DNA from: a candidate division TM6 bacterium GW2011_GWF2_28_16
GTDB taxonomy: Bacteria; Patescibacteriota; Microgenomatia; UBA1400; PJMF01
Assembly (NCBI GenBank): GCA_001029715.1
Contig: CP011212.1
Coordinates: 398,936 to 462,935 of the forward strand
DNA length: 64,000 bases
Direction of reading: 5' to 3'
The notes beneath the pieces are model-generated. The model did not search any database. It had not been told where the DNA came from and saw only the letters and a list, made by a program, of their open reading frames with translations. This document shows positions 32,454 through 47,542 of this stretch, piece by piece. The position numbers and the translations under genes were made by a program. How positions within the stretch are numbered: position 1 is the stretch's first letter; every line of letters begins with the position of its first letter.

Positions 32454-34100
32454 ATGAAATGGCATATTCAATCAGCGATCATTCCTAAAGACCTTGAAGA
32501 ACTAGGTAAAATTCTCCTTGCCAATAGAGAGATAGAAGATGAAAAAACATTTTTTAAGGGGATCTCTCCATTTAAGATTAGTCTTGAAGATCTAGGAATT
32601 GAACGTAGCGAGTTGGATAAAATTAAGCATCGCCTTAAAAAAGCCAAGGCCAAACAAGAGAAAATCATCATTTTTGGGGATTATGATGCCGATGGAATTA
32701 GCGCCAGTGCAGTGCTTTGGCAGGTTCTTCATGCAGAGAAATATAATGTTTTACCATTTATTCCCAATCGCCTTAAACATGGCTACGGTTTATCTGTTAG
32801 AGCCCTTGATGACTTGTTAAAAGATCAAGCTGACACTGCATTAATCATTACTGTCGACAATGGCATCGTGGCTCATCCTGCTCTTAAGTTACTTAAAGAG
32901 AAAAAAATTGACGTTATTATCAGTGATCATCATCAGCGAGATGAAGAAAAACTAGATGCTTTAGCAGTTTTTCATTCAACTAAGGTTTGTGGTTGTGCAG
33001 TAGCTTGGTTTTTAGCTAGAGAGTTGAGTACTAATTCTGATCGAAAGCTTTTAACTAATTTATTAGCTTTGGTGGCAATTGCTACTGTCACAGATCTGAT
33101 GCCTTTGCTTTCATATAACCGTTATTTATTGATGTACGGCTTGGCAGTTCTTAGAGCTAATAATAATCTTGGTTTGGAACAGCTTTTGCTTAAAGCTAAG
33201 ATCGATCCAGAAAATATTGATGCTTATACCCTGGGTTTTCAGATAGGTCCACGCATTAACGCCATGGGGCGTTTGGCTGAGGGTATGGATGCTCTGCGTT
33301 TGCTTTGTACTAAGGATAAGAAAAAAGCAGTTGCTCTCAGTAATCTTCTTTATAGTACCAATGAAGATCGACAAAATTTAACTTTAGATTTAACCAAACA
33401 AGCAGAAGAAATAGTCACCAAAGAAAAAGATGAAAAAATCATCATTTTGAGTTCTGCTGATTATCATGAAGGTATTATTGGTTTAATTGCTGGCAGAATG
33501 ACTGAGAAATTTTCTAAGCCAAGTATTGTCATTAGTGCTGGTTTAGACGTGGCCAAGGCGTCAGCCCGTTCTTTACCTGGTTTTAATATTACTGAATTTA
33601 TTCGCTTATTTAAAAAGGATTTATTAGAAGTTGGCGGTCATCCTTTAGCAGCTGGCTTTGCTTTAAAAACTTCGAAGATTGAAGAAGTCAAAAAAGCCAT
33701 GCAAGCTAAAGCAAAAGAGCTTTTGGCAGATACGAATTTAGAGAAAACTTTAGAATTGGAAGCAATTATGCCAGTGAACCTTTTGAATACCGAGACAGTA
33801 GGGTTAGTTAATAGCTTTGCTCCTTTTGGTTTGGCTAATACCAAGCCAGTTTTTCTTATAAAAAACGTTTTACTTAAAAACTATAAATTACTCGGTAAAG
33901 AACAGCAGCATTTAAAATTATCGATTTCAATCGGAGAAGATAACTCAGAGTACGATGTTTTAGCCTGGGGAAGAGCAAGCTTGCTTAATACCCTCAAATT
34001 GGAAGAACGATTTGATTTAGCTGTTTCTTTAGAAATTAATAGTTTCAGAGGGAGAGACAAATTGCAATTTGCTCTTAGAGATCTTCAAAAAGTTAGTTAA
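32454..34100 (+). CDS. recJ: Single-stranded-DNA-specific exonuclease RecJ
   Basis: DHH family motifs IIIFGDYDADGISA, ITVDNGI and ISDHHQ. Confidence 0.85.
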   Translation: MKWHIQSAIIPKDLEELGKILLANREIEDEKTFFKGISPFKISLEDLGIERSELDKIKHRLKKAKAKQEKIIIFGDYDADGISASAVLWQVLHAEKYNVLPFIPNRLKHGYGLSVRALDDLLKDQADTALIITVDNGIVAHPALKLLKEKKIDVIISDHHQRDEEKLDALAVFHSTKVCGCAVAWFLARELSTNSDRKLLTNLLALVAIATVTDLMPLLSYNRYLLMYGLAVLRANNNLGLEQLLLKAKIDPENIDAYTLGFQIGPRINAMGRLAEGMDALRLLCTKDKKKAVALSNLLYSTNEDRQNLTLDLTKQAEEIVTKEKDEKIIILSSADYHEGIIGLIAGRMTEKFSKPSIVISAGLDVAKASARSLPGFNITEFIRLFKKDLLEVGGHPLAAGFALKTSKIEEVKKAMQAKAKELLADTNLEKTLELEAIMPVNLLNTETVGLVNSFAPFGLANTKPVFLIKNVLLKNYKLLGKEQQHLKLSISIGEDNSEYDVLAWGRASLLNTLKLEERFDLAVSLEINSFRGRDKLQFALRDLQKVS

Positions 34101-34107
34101 AAATAAA

Positions 34108-34144
34108 AAACCGCAAACTTTGCAGCCTGCGGTTTCTATTTTTT
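34108..34144. terminator. Bidirectional rho-independent terminator between recJ and the convergent dsbA-like gene
   Basis: AAACCGCA-loop-TGCGGTTT stem flanked by A-run upstream and T-run downstream; it works on both strands. Confidence 0.6.
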
Positions 34145-34159
34145 AAATTAATTTATAAA

Positions 34160-34981
34160 TTAAAGATGTTTTTCCAATAATGCTTCTACCTGTTCAATTG
34201 GCAGAGCACCAGGAATTAGCTCAAAACCACCCTTTTTACTAACGATGACTGTTCCTGGAGTACCAGTAATGCCAGCTTTTGAGCCACCAACTTGGTCATC
34301 TTTGACGCTTTGTGCCATTTCGTTACTATCAATACAAGCTTTAACTTTATTAGTATCGGCACCTGCAGCAGTAGCTAGAGAGAGAATCATTTCTTCACTA
34401 ACTATTTTATTAGTAGCATCAGTACCAAAGATTGAGCCATCAGCCATTTTTTCGTAAACGCTGTCAGAGAATTTCCAGAAAGCATCTTCGCTACCGTAAG
34501 TAGCTACACATTCACTTGCTTCAGCAAGAGGCTGAGCATTTGGATGGAAAGAAAGTGGGAAATGTCTGTAAACCCAAGCAATTTGGTCGCCATATTTATC
34601 CATTAAGCTGGTCATAGTTGGGTGAAATTTATTACAGTAAGGACACTCGTAATCTGAATATTCGACCAAAACGACTTTAGCATTCTTATTGCCACGAATA
34701 TGATCAGTTTTTGCATCAAAAGCTGGTAAACTTTCTAATTTTTTTTGGGCAGCGGCTTCAGCGACAGTCGTGTCAGCAACTGCGGTTCCACCAGCGCCAA
34801 TTCCGCTTTTGAGTATTTTATTTTCTCTCCATAGAGAACCAGTTAAAAATCCCAAAAGGAATGCCATAATTAATAAAATAATGATAGAAAAATTAGCGTT
34901 TACAAAATCGCTAAAAGCTTTTAAAGAAAATTTGCTTACCACAAGCTGTGGAGCTTCTTTTTGTTGAATTTTTTTTGCCAT
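34160..34981 (-). CDS. Membrane-anchored thiol:disulfide oxidoreductase (DsbA/BdbD-like thioredoxin fold)
   Basis: N-terminal TM. CPYC active site (YSDYECPYCNKFH). Confidence 0.75.
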   Translation of the reverse strand: MAKKIQQKEAPQLVVSKFSLKAFSDFVNANFSIIILLIMAFLLGFLTGSLWRENKILKSGIGAGGTAVADTTVAEAAAQKKLESLPAFDAKTDHIRGNKNAKVVLVEYSDYECPYCNKFHPTMTSLMDKYGDQIAWVYRHFPLSFHPNAQPLAEASECVATYGSEDAFWKFSDSVYEKMADGSIFGTDATNKIVSEEMILSLATAAGADTNKVKACIDSNEMAQSVKDDQVGGSKAGITGTPGTVIVSKKGGFELIPGALPIEQVEALLEKHL

Positions 34982-35057
34982 AAGGCCTTTCCTAAAAAAT
35001 ATAATAAAAGTAGATTACAATATGCCTTATTAGAAAGAATTTTACAAGCAGAATATT

Positions 35058-35834
35058 ATGACTAAATCAAGACAGCTTAGTATTTACGAAAAAAATCAAT
35101 TGCTTAGATATGGTTTAAAGGAAGATGATCTTTTAGCTAGAGCTGAAATGCCTGTCGAATATTTGACTGGCTTTGTAAACTTCAAAAATTTAGAAATAAA
35201 AGTTAATCAAAATGTTTTAATTCCTAGGGTAGAAACTGAAGAATTAATTGATTTAATAACTAATTTTATTGATTCTATTAGAGCGCCACTTTCTTGTTTA
35301 GAAGTAGGTACGGGAAGCGGAGCAATCAGTCTTGCTCTTTTTGATTTTTTATCAAGACAAAAAAATTTACTTTTGGAAAAATTTATTTTAACTGATCTTT
35401 CTACAGCTGCCTTAAAAATAGCTAAAGAAAATTTTTCTAGATTATTTGGAACAGGATCTCTTTCAAAAATTCAATTTTTAGAAAATGATTTGTTGAGTGG
35501 ATTTTCAGAGCAAAAGTTTAATTTAATTGTTGCTAATCTCCCATATGTTCCTTCTGGCAAAATGGCAAATTTAGACTTAAGCGTCAAAGATTATGAACCA
35601 ATTTTAGCTCTTAATGGAGGAGAGAGCGGTTTTGAATTGATTAACAAAATGCTAGAACAAGTTTTAGATAAAGAATTATTGAGTGAAAAAGGTCAAATTT
35701 TTTTAGAGGTCTATGAAAATCACAACATTCAATTTATTAAAGAGAAGTTCCCTAAAATCTTTCAAAATTTTTCAATTAGAGAATCCAAAGATCAATTTAA
35801 TAGACAGCGTTTTTTAATTCTTCAGAAGATTTAG
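35058..35834 (+). CDS. prmC: HemK/PrmC-family protein-(glutamine-N5) methyltransferase
   Basis: VGTGSGAISLAL (SAM motif I) and IVANLPYVPS (NPPY-type motif, here NLPY). Confidence 0.6.
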   Translation: MTKSRQLSIYEKNQLLRYGLKEDDLLARAEMPVEYLTGFVNFKNLEIKVNQNVLIPRVETEELIDLITNFIDSIRAPLSCLEVGTGSGAISLALFDFLSRQKNLLLEKFILTDLSTAALKIAKENFSRLFGTGSLSKIQFLENDLLSGFSEQKFNLIVANLPYVPSGKMANLDLSVKDYEPILALNGGESGFELINKMLEQVLDKELLSEKGQIFLEVYENHNIQFIKEKFPKIFQNFSIRESKDQFNRQRFLILQKI

Positions 35835-36947
35835 GTATTGCTCTGCGACTTTTTCTATTTGATATTTTTTTATAAAGTTTTGTTGGGCATTCTTAGCTAG
35901 TTTTTTTTGTAAATTTTTATCTTTAAGTAATTCAATGATTTTATTTGATAAATCAATGTAATCTTTATTTTTAGCTAATAAAGAATTTTTTTCGTTGCTG
36001 AGGATTTCGTTTCCAGGGGCACGATCAAAGGCAACAATTGGTTTAGCAAAGGCCATGGCTTCAATAATGGTTAAACCAAAACCCTCTAGAGACCAAACTG
36101 AGGGGCAGACAATCAGCTCACTCTCTTCGATAGCTTTTTGTTTATTTTTAACATATTGAAGAAATTTAATTTGTTGATCATTTTTAGCCATCAATTTAAG
36201 TTCTTTTTCAAAATTTCCTTGACCGATAATTAGGAGCTCGGCATCTTTAAATTCTTTTTTGACTAAGGCAAAAGCTTTAATTGCTAAATCTTGTCCTTTA
36301 CCTTTTTCAAGTCTAGAGATAACAGTAATAGTTCGTTTTTTAATTGTTTTTTGTCTTTTTAATGAGGGAATAAAACTTCCACAAGGAATAATAATCATTT
36401 TTTCTTTGGCAAAGACTTTTTTGAGGGCAAATTAAGTGTTATTTGATGGAACAATAATTTTAGAAGCAATATTTTTAGTTAGGAAATAAAGGAATTTTGG
36501 AATTCCTCTGAGTTTTACAAAAAGTGGTTCCAGTGGACCATACTCTATGAAAAAAGTGGGCAAATTAAACAACTTAGATAAAGGTCCGGGAATAATTTTT
36601 TCTGAAAAACCAGAGTAAATAACAACTTGTTTTGAAGATCTTTTTTTAATCTCTGAGAAGACTTTGAAATAATAAATTATGGCAAAAGGGCTTAGTAAAA
36701 TACTTTTTAGTAAACCTCTCCGATTGCTGGCAAAATCTAAATAAAGAGGAGTTTTTTTAACTTGTAGATTTTTTTTGTTAGTTAAGTTTTTTAATAGAAA
36801 GTCATTGCTGGTGTAAAGATATACAAAATTGCCCTTTTTAGCCAATTCAAGCAATAAATCTTTGGCGAATTGTTCTGCTCCGCCGAAATCTTTACTTTGA
36901 AGGAAAAAGTTAATAGTTATTTTTTTCGGTTTGAACGATGATTCCAT
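35814..36947 (-). pseudogene. GT4-family glycosyltransferase interrupted by a single in-frame TAA (codon at 36432-36434)
   Basis: The N-terminal GT4 half (36432-36947) and the C-terminal half (35814-36398, EX7E-like region, LLIIGQG...) are in the same reading frame. They are separated only by the stop; read-through gives ...VPSNNT*FALKKVFAKEKMIIIPCG... Confidence 0.6.
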
Positions 36948-37164
36948 TTAGATTTTCTGGCAACATATCTGATATTTTTTCAAAAAATGGTCTAAAAATA
37001 GGAATTAAAATATTGACTAAAACTAATAGGACAATGATGTTAAAAAACCAAGCTCCTGCGCTACGAGCCATTCCAGCCAAAAAATTTTTCCTCATAACCA
37101 TCCAATTACTGACATCATAAATAGTGTCGTGTTTTTCTAAGTTGAGTTTATGGTCTTTTGTCAT
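36910..37164 (-). CDS. Small membrane protein, hypothetical
   Basis: 84 aa with one TM. Overlaps the GT4 start by 38 nt. Confidence 0.3.
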   Translation of the reverse strand: MTKDHKLNLEKHDTIYDVSNWMVMRKNFLAGMARSAGAWFFNIIVLLVLVNILIPIFRPFFEKISDMLPENLNGIIVQTEKNNY

Positions 37165-37270
37165 TTTTATATTCTAGCTTTTCTTTTTAACTAACTCAAG
37201 CAAAAGAATTTTGTTGATGTTATACTTGACGCATTCAAAATCAAAAAATTTAAAAATAGAAAGGTTTTTA

Positions 37271-46560: not shown

Positions 46561-46770
46561 AATATTTTTATAAAATTACCGCTTGCGCTGATTCTCAATT
46601 CTTGCTACTTTAATTATTGCTGTGGAACATAGTGAAAATCTATGACTGTGCCGCAACGGTAATTCCTTTTTAAGGATTAGTCCGATCTTCAGCAAAAGAG
46701 AAATCTTGACGAGCATCGAGGCTGTATATTTTACTGTCGATGCTCCCTAAAGGGGAGCTTTTTTGTTCAA
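46561..46770 (+). promoter_or_regulatory. Structured leader with alternative hairpins ending in an intrinsic terminator (attenuator/riboswitch-like)
   Basis: Hairpin A is GAGCATCGA (46711-46719) / TCGATGCTC (46736-46744). Its 3' arm overlaps the 5' arm of the terminator GCTCCC(46742-46747)-TAAA-GGGAGC + T6. A further long-range stem lies upstream. Confidence 0.4.
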
Positions 46771-46840
46771 AGAACCACGGCTATTAATATTATTAATAGT
46801 TATCTTCGTGGTTAATTTCTGCGAAGTAAGAAAGGTTTTT

Positions 46841-47542
46841 ATGAACACAAAAGCTATCGAAATGGCAGGCAGTATTGGAATTGAGCTAAGCCAAATAAAT
46901 TCAGAATGGACTTCTCTTCAAAGCATTGATTCTTCTTCAATATTAGAGAATGCAGGTAAGGAAGCAGGCATAGAAGATCGTCAGTGGCAAAAATTGCTTT
47001 CTCAAGCTGGTTCTTGGGTGATTGATGGTTTGGATAAAAAGATATTTGAAATACAAAATAAAGTAATTGAGCAAACAACTGCCATTGAGTTAAGAAAAAT
47101 GTTTGGTGTTCCACTTTCATTGCTAGCAATGCCTGTTTTTGTAGAGTTGGCAGGAATGGAATTGGCAGCGAAAATTGATTTGAAAAAAGAAGCCATGATG
47201 ACCTCTCAAATTTGGGAACAAATTAATAACAGAGTTTTATATATGGTTCAACTTTTCTTAGCAGAGCAAATCAATTTGGTCGAAGATGAAGAAAAAGCTC
47301 ATCAGAGTGCTTTGAGTGAATCAAAGAAAGAAGCCGACGGAGTCTCTGGTTTATCAGAAACGGTGGGAGCTGTGGAGAATCAATTTGCTTCAAAGCTGGA
47401 AAAACTAAAAGATAAGAAAGAATCTTTAATAAGTGTTTTCAAAAAGATTGGTGGAGATTTAGTTAATACTGTTGAGAGAGCTTTTGAGACTACTGTTTTT
47501 AGTGCGAGTAGGCAAAGTACTGCTGTTACGGTGATTCAATAA
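46841..47542 (+). CDS. Hypothetical all-alpha protein
   Basis: Start chosen at ATG 46841 with AAGAAAGG SD (MNTKAIEMAGS...); the track TTG start at 46763 lies inside the terminator. Confidence 0.5.
   Translation: MNTKAIEMAGSIGIELSQINSEWTSLQSIDSSSILENAGKEAGIEDRQWQKLLSQAGSWVIDGLDKKIFEIQNKVIEQTTAIELRKMFGVPLSLLAMPVFVELAGMELAAKIDLKKEAMMTSQIWEQINNRVLYMVQLFLAEQINLVEDEEKAHQSALSESKKEADGVSGLSETVGAVENQFASKLEKLKDKKESLISVFKKIGGDLVNTVERAFETTVFSASRQSTAVTVIQ

What the first reader, a model, noticed from the sequence alone, without database searches (positions are those of the whole stretch)
35814..36947. GT4 glycosyltransferase split by exactly one in-frame TAA
The N- and C-terminal halves of a typical ~375-aa GT4 enzyme are in the same frame. 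They are separated only by the TAA at 36432-36434; read-through gives ...VPSNNT*FALKKVFAKEKMIIIPCG... This is either a very recent nonsense mutation (pseudogene), a sequencing error, a strain polymorphism, or a stop-codon read-through site. An ATG with a possible downstream restart lies 11 codons after the stop.
Basis: seen in the sequence. Interest (0 to 1): 0.5.

Follow-up and report, generated by a model that had tools for sequence, protein, structure and literature searches.

The report
Glycosyltransferase gene broken by nonsense mutation
A sugar-transferring enzyme gene in one groundwater strain of an uncultured Pacebacteria bacterium carries a real, recent single-base change (CAA to TAA) that cuts it in two; sister strains and more than 30 related species keep it whole, so this is an ordinary young broken gene.

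Summary
On the minus strand, 36947..35814 encodes a 377-codon GT4 (GT-B fold) glycosyltransferase with one in-frame TAA at codon 172 (36434..36432).

The window is the published genome of Candidatus Pacebacteria bacterium GW2011_GWF2_38_9. There the halves are annotated as two proteins, AKM81407 and AKM81406.

The stop is not a random sequencing error. The TAA allele lies on at least 24 contigs in the public collection. The six fetched carry six different sample or run names and are 100% identical to the window.

The stop is not conserved. Two same-species strains (about 96-97% identical over the locus) and a 77% relative all have CAA (Gln), so it is a C-to-T transition. About 79 homologues are full-length single proteins with Q or K there.

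pN/pS of both halves (0-0.18) lies within the range of intact neighbouring genes, so the mutation is young.

Recoding is not supported. TAA ends 36 of 52 long ORFs, the context is TAA-T, and there is no structure downstream.

The N fragment lacks the donor-binding domain and the EX7E motif. The most likely outcome is loss of function. A two-piece enzyme restarted at Met184 cannot be excluded (about 0.15).

Low interest.

The parts
35814..36947 (-). Whole GT4 (GT-B fold) glycosyltransferase reading frame: 377 codons plus terminal TAA, interrupted at codon 172.
   Evidence: collinear with 377-aa P0001 at 98% identity; the model of that orthologue is a GT-B fold matching PglA, PimB', BshA and MshA.
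36435..36947 (-). N-terminal fragment, codons 1-171. It is the acceptor-side Rossmann domain without its last strand. GenBank AKM81407, annotated 'hypothetical protein'.
   Evidence: No Pfam hit on its own. In the model, beta-strands 10-16 through 163-166 lie here.
36432..36434 (-). Premature stop TAA (codon 172). The three nearest relatives have CAA (Gln) here, so it is a C-to-T transition. The following base is T.
36399..36431 (-). Eleven in-frame sense codons (FALKKVFAKEK) between the stop and the next ATG. The stretch is A-rich, has no Shine-Dalgarno match and no start codon.
   Evidence: anti-SD duplex -0.9 kcal/mol, like the median gene in the window; no significant structure.
35814..36398 (-). 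C-terminal fragment ORF, Met184-Asn377 plus stop (194 aa). It holds the donor-binding domain with R212, K217 and the E288-x7-E296 motif. GenBank AKM81406, annotated 'Glycosyltransferase, family 4'.
   Evidence: PF00534, E 8e-36; these columns are invariant or nearly so..
36910..37164 (-). Upstream 84-aa small hydrophobic (putative membrane) protein gene. It overlaps the GT4 start by 38 nt and is the conserved partner of the GT4 gene.
   Evidence: conserved directly upstream of GT4 orthologues L011-L018. Called as a gene in all related contigs.
37171..37199 (-). Promoter-like site (TTGAGT-17-TAGAAT) just upstream of the 84-aa ORF. It is a possible promoter of the two-gene unit, based on a consensus match only.

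Best explanation
This is a genuine, evolutionarily recent nonsense mutation, CAA(Gln172) to TAA by a C-to-T transition. It is the only allele assembled so far for one strain of Candidatus Pacebacteria (GW2011_GWF2_38_9). It truncates a conserved single-chain GT4/GT-B glycosyltransferase in the short helix after the sixth strand of its N-terminal domain. Translation stops at the efficient TAA-T signal. The resulting 171-aa fragment has no nucleotide-sugar-binding domain and no EX7E catalytic motif. The most likely consequence is loss, or near loss, of this enzyme in this strain: a young pseudogene that has not yet accumulated further damage. The gene is the last in its transcription unit, convergent with prmC, so the stop has no polar effect on other genes. 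Shown: the stop exists, it is reproducible across assemblies, it is derived, it is absent from sister strains and orthologues, and there is no excess substitution. Inferred: loss of function.
For: The stop and frame are shown. The same TAA allele is on at least 24 contigs. The six fetched, labelled ERZ27254744, JGI 3300025000, SRR3309327, SRR1658472, ANAN16-1/SAMN03203003 and SRR1658471, are 100% identical to the window over up to 10.5 kb. Intact alleles with CAA at codon 172 occur in L001 (SRR22216448), L009/L010 (GCA_018817305.1 and JGI 3300014656) and L008. About 79 strong homologues are single proteins of 345-561 aa covering 93-100% of the query; in the 25-sequence alignment the column is mostly Q or K. 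Thirty-four orthologous loci from genome assemblies (those named are Pacebacteria and other Microgenomates, many merely 'uncultured') were translated, and 33 have no internal stop. The catalytic and donor-binding residues R212, K217, E288 and E296 all lie downstream of the stop and are invariant or nearly so. The GT-B fold model has pLDDT 94.8, and the stop falls in helix 169-174. PDB matches are GT4 enzymes. TAA terminates 36 of 52 long ORFs in the window, 12 of them as TAA-T. pN/pS against the sister strains is 0-0.09 for the N half and 0.16-0.18 for the C half. Intact neighbours give 0.00-0.75, so no relaxation is detectable and the mutation is recent.
Against: No further disabling changes have occurred downstream of the stop. 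On the window lineage, 2-3 non-synonymous changes stand against 5 synonymous ones. That is what a very young pseudogene would show, but equally what a still-selected C-terminal fragment would show. An in-frame ATG 11 codons downstream sits in a sequence context typical of genuine starts in this mostly Shine-Dalgarno-less genome. The C fragment could therefore be made. Loss of function was not measured.
Confidence: 0.7

Rival explanations
1. Newly born two-subunit enzyme. After termination at TAA, ribosomes reinitiate at Met184. The 171-aa N fragment and the 194-aa C fragment then reassemble non-covalently into an active GT-B enzyme, as Alg14/Alg13 and EpsE/EpsF do.
For: The break lies near the end of the N-terminal domain. 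The C fragment would carry that domain's last strand (184-186) and the two C-terminal helices (344-376). In GT-B enzymes those helices pack back onto the N domain (established topology; inference here), which gives interaction surfaces. The restart ATG is only 33 nt downstream in an unstructured, A-rich context, and its anti-SD score (-0.9) equals the window median (-0.95). Both halves show low pN/pS. Split GT-B enzymes that work as heterodimers exist (PMC8993221, read).
Against: No orthologue is split at this point: about 79 proteins and 33 of 34 loci are single ORFs. All TAA contigs are one clone with zero divergence, so there is no evidence of persistence under selection. The Met at 184 is ancestral, the majority residue of its column, and not a new adaptation. 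Twelve residues, including helix 169-174, would be lost. The low pN/pS is equally explained by the youth of the mutation.
Confidence: 0.15
2. Programmed stop-codon read-through or recoding of TAA produces the full-length enzyme.
For: The two halves are in frame with a single stop. Near-cognate decoding of UAA by tRNA-Gln(UUG) would restore the ancestral Gln. This is general knowledge and was not tested here.
Against: The stop is absent from the three closest relatives and from all other homologues, whereas a programmed site should be conserved. TAA is the dominant genuine terminator in the window, at 36 of 52 long ORFs. The tetranucleotide is TAA-T, known from E. coli work as a strong termination context (my own knowledge). 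The 111 nt around and downstream of the stop fold no better than shuffles, z = -0.33. No suppressor tRNA is in the window, only tRNA-Glu(CTC) and tRNA-Gln(CTG). The rest of the genome was not scanned.
Confidence: 0.03
3. Sequencing, assembly or consensus artefact: the organism really has CAA.
For: Single-base errors occur in metagenome-derived genomes. Several of the contigs are re-assemblies of the same or related Rifle libraries, so they are not fully independent.
Against: The identical TAA was recovered by different assemblers and projects (Logan, ENA, JGI, GenBank) on at least 24 contigs. The six fetched carry six different sample or run names and have no mismatch to the window over up to 10.5 kb. 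The exact window protein with Q or K at position 172 is absent from a 15-billion-protein collection. The site is not in a homopolymer and the change is a substitution, not an indel.
Confidence: 0.03
4. Within-population polymorphism. The Rifle population carries both TAA and CAA alleles, and assemblies report only the majority allele. This reading is compatible with the best explanation.
For: Intact alleles exist in sister strains elsewhere. Consensus assemblies hide minor alleles.
Against: No contig with the window haplotype and a sense codon was found. All six TAA contigs fetched are identical to the window.
Confidence: 0.09

Closest known systems
CAZy family GT4 retaining glycosyltransferases of the GT-B fold (solved examples: PglA 8dqd, PimB' 3oka, HepE 4xsu, BshA 5d00/6d9t, MshA 3c4q)
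   Same: It has the Pfam Glycos_transf_1 C-terminal domain (E 8e-36). The predicted two-Rossmann-domain fold has TM-scores (normalised to the query) of about 0.72-0.82 to most of these enzymes. E288-x7-E296, R212 and K217 are conserved.
   Different: In this strain the reading frame is interrupted at codon 172. It reaches no NCBIfam equivalog cut-off (best hit PglH, 78 bits against 600), so donor and acceptor are unknown. Sequence identity to solved structures is only 14-21%.
Young bacterial pseudogenes created by a single nonsense mutation (strain-specific gene inactivation)
   Same: There is a single derived stop relative to intact alleles in sister strains. No further decay has occurred, and automatic annotation calls two CDSs.
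   Different: Nothing unusual. The only particular feature is that the break falls near a domain boundary with an in-frame ATG 33 nt downstream.
Naturally split GT-B glycosyltransferases Alg14/Alg13 and EpsE/EpsF (MurG-like)
   Same: An acceptor-side N-domain and a donor-side C-domain lie on separate, adjacent reading frames in N-then-C order (PMC8993221).
   Different: Those belong to a different family (GT1/GT28-like, not GT4), and their split is ancient and conserved across a clade. Here the split is confined to one clone, and every orthologue translated is unsplit at this position.

Membership tests
GT4 / GT-B glycosyltransferase | C-terminal nucleotide-sugar-binding domain (Pfam Glycos_transf_1, PF00534) | tested here: met
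   the C half scores 123.5 bits (cut-off 26.4), E 8.3e-36. PF13692 scores 103 bits.
GT4 / GT-B glycosyltransferase | N-terminal acceptor domain (Pfam Glyco_transf_4, PF13439) | tested here: inconclusive
   no hit for the N half alone. The joined protein scores 21.6 bits, below the 28.5 cut-off. PF13439 is on record for many orthologues, and the fold model shows the domain.
GT4 / GT-B glycosyltransferase | Two Rossmann-like domains with C-terminal helices returning to the N domain (GT-B fold) | tested here: met
   on the 98%-identical intact orthologue P0001: pLDDT 94.8, pTM 0.92. The top PDB matches are all GT-B glycosyltransferases, most of them GT4, with probability 1.0.
GT4 / GT-B glycosyltransferase | EX7E motif in the C-terminal domain | tested here: met
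   E288-GFGLTII-E296. Both residues are invariant in the 25-sequence alignment. E296 is invariant and E288 at least 90% conserved in the 62-sequence alignment.
GT4 / GT-B glycosyltransferase | Both domains on one uninterrupted polypeptide | tested here: not met
   TAA at codon 172 in the window. The feature is met in all close relatives.
Conserved split GT-B (Alg14/Alg13, EpsE/EpsF type) | The two halves are separate genes in related genomes (the split is conserved) | tested here: not met
   homologues are single ORFs. The only other interruption, a TAG in L019, is at a different position.
Conserved split GT-B (Alg14/Alg13, EpsE/EpsF type) | Fragments associate and are active together | not testable with these tools
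   This needs co-expression and an activity assay.
Programmed stop-codon read-through / recoding site | The stop codon is conserved at the site among relatives | tested here: not met
   CAA in L001, L009/L010 and L008; a sense residue in all 24 aligned homologues.
Programmed stop-codon read-through / recoding site | Leaky stop context or a stimulatory downstream RNA structure | tested here: not met
   TAA-T. MFE -9.9 kcal/mol, z = -0.33 against shuffles. TAA is the usual terminator.
Programmed stop-codon read-through / recoding site | A cognate suppressor tRNA in the genome | tested here: inconclusive
   none in the 64-kb window, which has only tRNA-Glu and tRNA-Gln(CTG). The rest of the 853-kb genome was not available for scanning.
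Pseudogene (nonsense-inactivated) | A disabling mutation relative to intact orthologues | tested here: met
Pseudogene (nonsense-inactivated) | Relaxed selection or additional lesions | tested here: not met
   pN/pS is 0-0.18, within the range of intact neighbours. There are no indels. This is expected if the mutation is very recent, so it does not exclude a pseudogene.

The most novel reading that the evidence does not exclude
The locus is a GT-B glycosyltransferase caught at the moment of gene fission. A single nonsense mutation near the inter-domain boundary, together with a pre-existing in-frame Met 11 codons downstream in a genome that initiates mostly without Shine-Dalgarno sequences, would yield two polypeptides. 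These would reassemble into an active enzyme. It would be a natural snapshot of how split enzymes such as Alg14/Alg13 arise.
Probability: 0.12. Interest if true: 0.5.

Novelty: new member of a known kind. Interest (0 to 1): 0.12.

Why it matters
The practical value is for annotation. In the public record of this reference candidate-phyla-radiation genome, the two pieces stand as a 'hypothetical protein' (AKM81407) and a short 'Glycosyltransferase, family 4' (AKM81406). They should be read as one disrupted gene. It also shows strain-level loss of a glycosyltransferase that is otherwise conserved among related Pacebacteria and other Microgenomates, together with its 84-aa partner gene. That loss may alter the cell surface of this strain. 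If the fragments proved to work together, it would be a small, clean example of gene fission at a domain boundary. The evidence does not favour that reading.

Tried and rejected
Recoding and read-through. I checked stop-codon usage, tRNAs in the window, RNA structure around and downstream of the stop and Rfam families. Nothing supports it.

Sequencing error. I looked up the truncated protein across public assemblies and compared the contigs base by base. The allele is reproducible. The exact window protein with Q or K at position 172 is not in the collection.

Two genuinely separate genes. The homologue search, the alignments and translation of 34 orthologous loci show single ORFs.

Relaxed selection. 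Nei-Gojobori counts against two sister strains, with neighbouring genes as controls, and polarisation with an outgroup show no excess of non-synonymous change. This test cannot separate a young pseudogene from a functional split.

Shine-Dalgarno test of the restart ATG. It is uninformative, because most genes here have no Shine-Dalgarno sequence.

Other tries. A search for other one-stop splits in the window found none. A Pfam check of the ten other ORFs I scanned found no glycosyltransferase. A literature search for the genome name found nothing in the held library.

Full report
**1. The observation**

The feature lies on the minus strand. Translating window:35814-36947:- gives 171 residues, one TAA (codon 172, + strand coordinates 36432-36434), 205 more residues and the terminal TAA.

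Eleven sense codons (FALKKVFAKEK) separate the stop from the next ATG at 36398-36396. No other ATG, GTG or TTG lies between them.

The C half is a strong Glycos_transf_1 domain (PF00534, E 8e-36). The N half has no Pfam hit alone, but in the joined protein it gives a sub-threshold Glyco_transf_4 hit.

The window holds four same-frame adjacent open segments of at least 90 codons. This is the only pair that belongs to one protein. The others are unrelated neighbours: an NTP-transferase next to an unknown ORF, an unknown ORF next to SecD, and YbaB next to Ham1.

**2. Where the window comes from**

Exact look-up of both halves returns GenBank proteins AKM81407.1 (N half, 'hypothetical protein UT13_C0001G0445') and AKM81406.1 (C half, 'Glycosyltransferase, family 4'). 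Both are from Candidatus Pacebacteria bacterium GW2011_GWF2_38_9, on a contig of 853,053 bp. The split is therefore already in the public record as two CDSs, though it is not flagged as one disrupted gene.

**3. Is the stop real?**

The exact 171-aa truncated product is called on at least 24 contigs of the public collection. The six contigs fetched carry six different sample or run names from several sources: ENA ERZ27254744, JGI 3300025000, Logan SRR3309327 and SRR1658472, ANAN16-1/SAMN03203003, and ERZ909587/SRR1658471.

All six are 100% identical to the window across everything fetched, up to 10.5 kb. Some are re-assemblies of related libraries from one aquifer, so they represent one clonal strain rather than independent lineages. 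Even so, a random sequencing or assembly error is excluded.

The window protein with Q or K restored at position 172 does not exist anywhere in the 15-billion-protein collection. Its 90% cluster holds only the 194-aa fragment and two intact proteins from other strains.

**4. What relatives have at this position**

The joined sequence finds a 377-aa protein at 98% identity (P0001, E 9e-231), another at 79%, and about 79 strong homologues. These are 345-561 aa long and cover 93-100% of the query; one further hit (P0075, 256 aa) covers 62%.

In the 25-sequence alignment the stop column is Q in the two closest relatives and K in most others.

At the DNA level three relatives have CAA at codon 172:
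- L001 (SRR22216448): 98.2% identical in the gene, 96.8% over 5.3 kb.
- L009/L010 (GCA_018817305.1 and JGI 3300014656): 98.1% in the gene, 95.7% over 11 kb.
- L008: 77% identical.

The window's TAA is therefore a derived C-to-T transition. Gene order around the locus is the same in all of them: PFL, orf84, GT4, prmC, a DsbA-like gene, recJ.

A scan of species-representative genomes returned 34 complete orthologous loci. Those with informative names are Pacebacteria or other Microgenomates; many are labelled only 'uncultured'. Thirty-three have no internal stop. One, UBA1364 (L019), has an unrelated TAG at a different codon. The halves are not separately conserved genes.

**5. Age of the mutation and selection**

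Against the two sister strains, the N half has 6 synonymous and 0-2 non-synonymous differences (pN/pS 0-0.09). The C half has 7-8 synonymous and 5 non-synonymous differences (0.16-0.18).

Intact neighbours give 0.00-0.75: PFL 0.06, RecJ 0.05-0.06, orf84 0.00-0.08, the DsbA-like gene 0.09-0.22, PrmC 0.30-0.75.

Polarising with L008, the window lineage has 2-3 non-synonymous changes (S192F, N317S, possibly R267K) against 5 synonymous changes downstream of the stop, and no indels. By my own binomial estimate, assuming about 3 non-synonymous sites per synonymous site, this is fewer non-synonymous changes than neutral drift over the whole branch would give (p about 0.03).

Two readings fit. Either the stop arose late on the branch, or the C fragment is still under selection. 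The data cannot separate the two.

**6. Where the break falls in the protein**

AlphaFold2 on the intact 98% orthologue, with a 62-sequence alignment, gives pLDDT 94.8 and pTM 0.92. Foldseek against the PDB returns GT-B enzymes, most of them GT4: PglA, PimB', HepE, BshA, MshA, TarM and WaaG. Probability is 1.0 and the query-normalised TM-score about 0.7-0.8 for most.

The stop lies in the short helix 169-174 that follows strand 163-166. Met184 begins strand 184-186. The first strand of the C-terminal domain is 206-210. Helices 344-376 end the chain.

From the established GT-B topology (inference), strand 184-186 and the terminal helices belong structurally to the N-terminal domain.

R212, K217 and the E288-x7-E296 motif, which are invariant or nearly so, all lie downstream of the stop. 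The 171-aa product therefore cannot bind the sugar donor or catalyse transfer.

**7. Read-through or restart?**

Read-through is not supported:
- TAA ends 36 of 52 long ORFs in the window, 12 of them as TAA-T, the same context as here.
- The 111 nt around and after the stop fold no better than shuffles (z = -0.33).
- Rfam finds nothing at the site.
- The window's tRNAs are Glu(CTC) and Gln(CTG) only.
- The stop is not conserved in relatives.

Restart cannot be excluded. Only 11 of 54 ORFs in the window have an anti-SD duplex of -4 kcal/mol or better. The median is -0.95 and the internal ATG scores -0.9. The lack of a Shine-Dalgarno sequence therefore says nothing either way.

The Met is ancestral; M is the majority residue in that column. 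Split GT-B enzymes that work as heterodimers are known, namely Alg14/Alg13 and EpsE/EpsF (PMC8993221). Those belong to another family, and their split is conserved across a clade. Here it is confined to one clone.

**8. Context**

The GT4 gene follows, and overlaps by 38 nt, an 84-aa hydrophobic ORF. That ORF is conserved directly upstream of orthologues down to about 47% identity. A promoter-like site sits just upstream of it.

The GT4 gene is the last in its unit and converges on prmC, overlapping it by 21 nt. A premature stop therefore has no polar victims.

No NCBIfam equivalog is reached (best is PglH, 78 bits against a 600-bit cut-off), so the substrate is unknown.

**9. Verdict**

The best explanation is a real, recent CAA-to-TAA nonsense mutation. 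It is the only allele assembled for one aquifer strain, and the most probable result is loss of function (0.7).

The rivals are a functional two-piece enzyme (0.15), a co-existing intact minor allele (0.09), programmed read-through (0.03) and an artefact (0.03).

This is an ordinary kind of event. It is useful mainly as an annotation correction, with a small chance of being an instructive case of gene fission.

Noticed in passing
window 36910-37164 (-): An 84-aa hydrophobic ORF (AKM81408, no family hit) overlaps the GT4 start by 38 nt. It is conserved immediately upstream of GT4 orthologues in L011-L018 (47-66% identity). This suggests a conserved module of a small, putatively membrane protein plus GT4.
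   Followed up: partly
L019:3352-3354 (Candidatus Pacebacteria bacterium UBA1364, DBRQ01000009.1): The GT4 orthologue of this distant relative (43% identity) carries an independent in-frame TAG at a different position (GKL*SIPVV, roughly residue 127 of the query). This gene family is therefore found interrupted more than once, or that assembly has an error.
   Followed up: partly
window 35058-35834 (+): A HemK/PrmC-like release-factor glutamine methyltransferase converges on the GT4 gene and overlaps its 3' end by 21 nt. It has NLPY where the canonical motif, from memory, is NPPY; the three other members of its 90% protein cluster also have NLPY. It scores below the NCBIfam PrmC equivalog cut-off (164.6 against 199.1). 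It shows the highest pN/pS among the neighbours (0.30-0.75, small counts).
   Followed up: partly
window 46597-46756 (+): An AdoCbl (cobalamin) riboswitch (Rfam RF01482, 55.6 bits against a 50-bit gathering score) sits directly upstream of the ORF at 46763-47542.
   Followed up: no
homologues P0041, P0045, P0047, P0049, P0050, P0053-P0058: A subset of more distant homologues (about 530-560 aa) have the same GT4 body fused to an extra region. In several of them this carries methyltransferase domains (PF08241/PF13649).
   Followed up: no
whole window, start regions of 54 ORFs: Only 11 of 54 ORFs have a recognisable Shine-Dalgarno match. Several starts (for example 3935, 30849/32429, 32454, 42369, 52223) have a TATAAT-like box within about 10-20 nt upstream. 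This suggests leaderless or very short-leader mRNAs.
   Followed up: partly
window 32454-37164 (proteins AKM81403-AKM81408): Identical proteins are deposited under two organism names: Candidatus Pacebacteria bacterium GW2011_GWF2_38_9 and 'candidate division TM6 bacterium GW2011_GWF2_28_16' (the KKQ accessions). This points to a mis-binned contig in one public bin.
   Followed up: no
window 36018-36059 (-), codons 297-310 of the GT4 gene: Five window-versus-relative synonymous differences are clustered within 14 codons: GCC, GCC, CCA, GCC, GCC against GCT, GCA, CCG, GCT, GCT. Four of the five are specific to the window. This could be a small recombination tract or a local codon shift.
   Followed up: no
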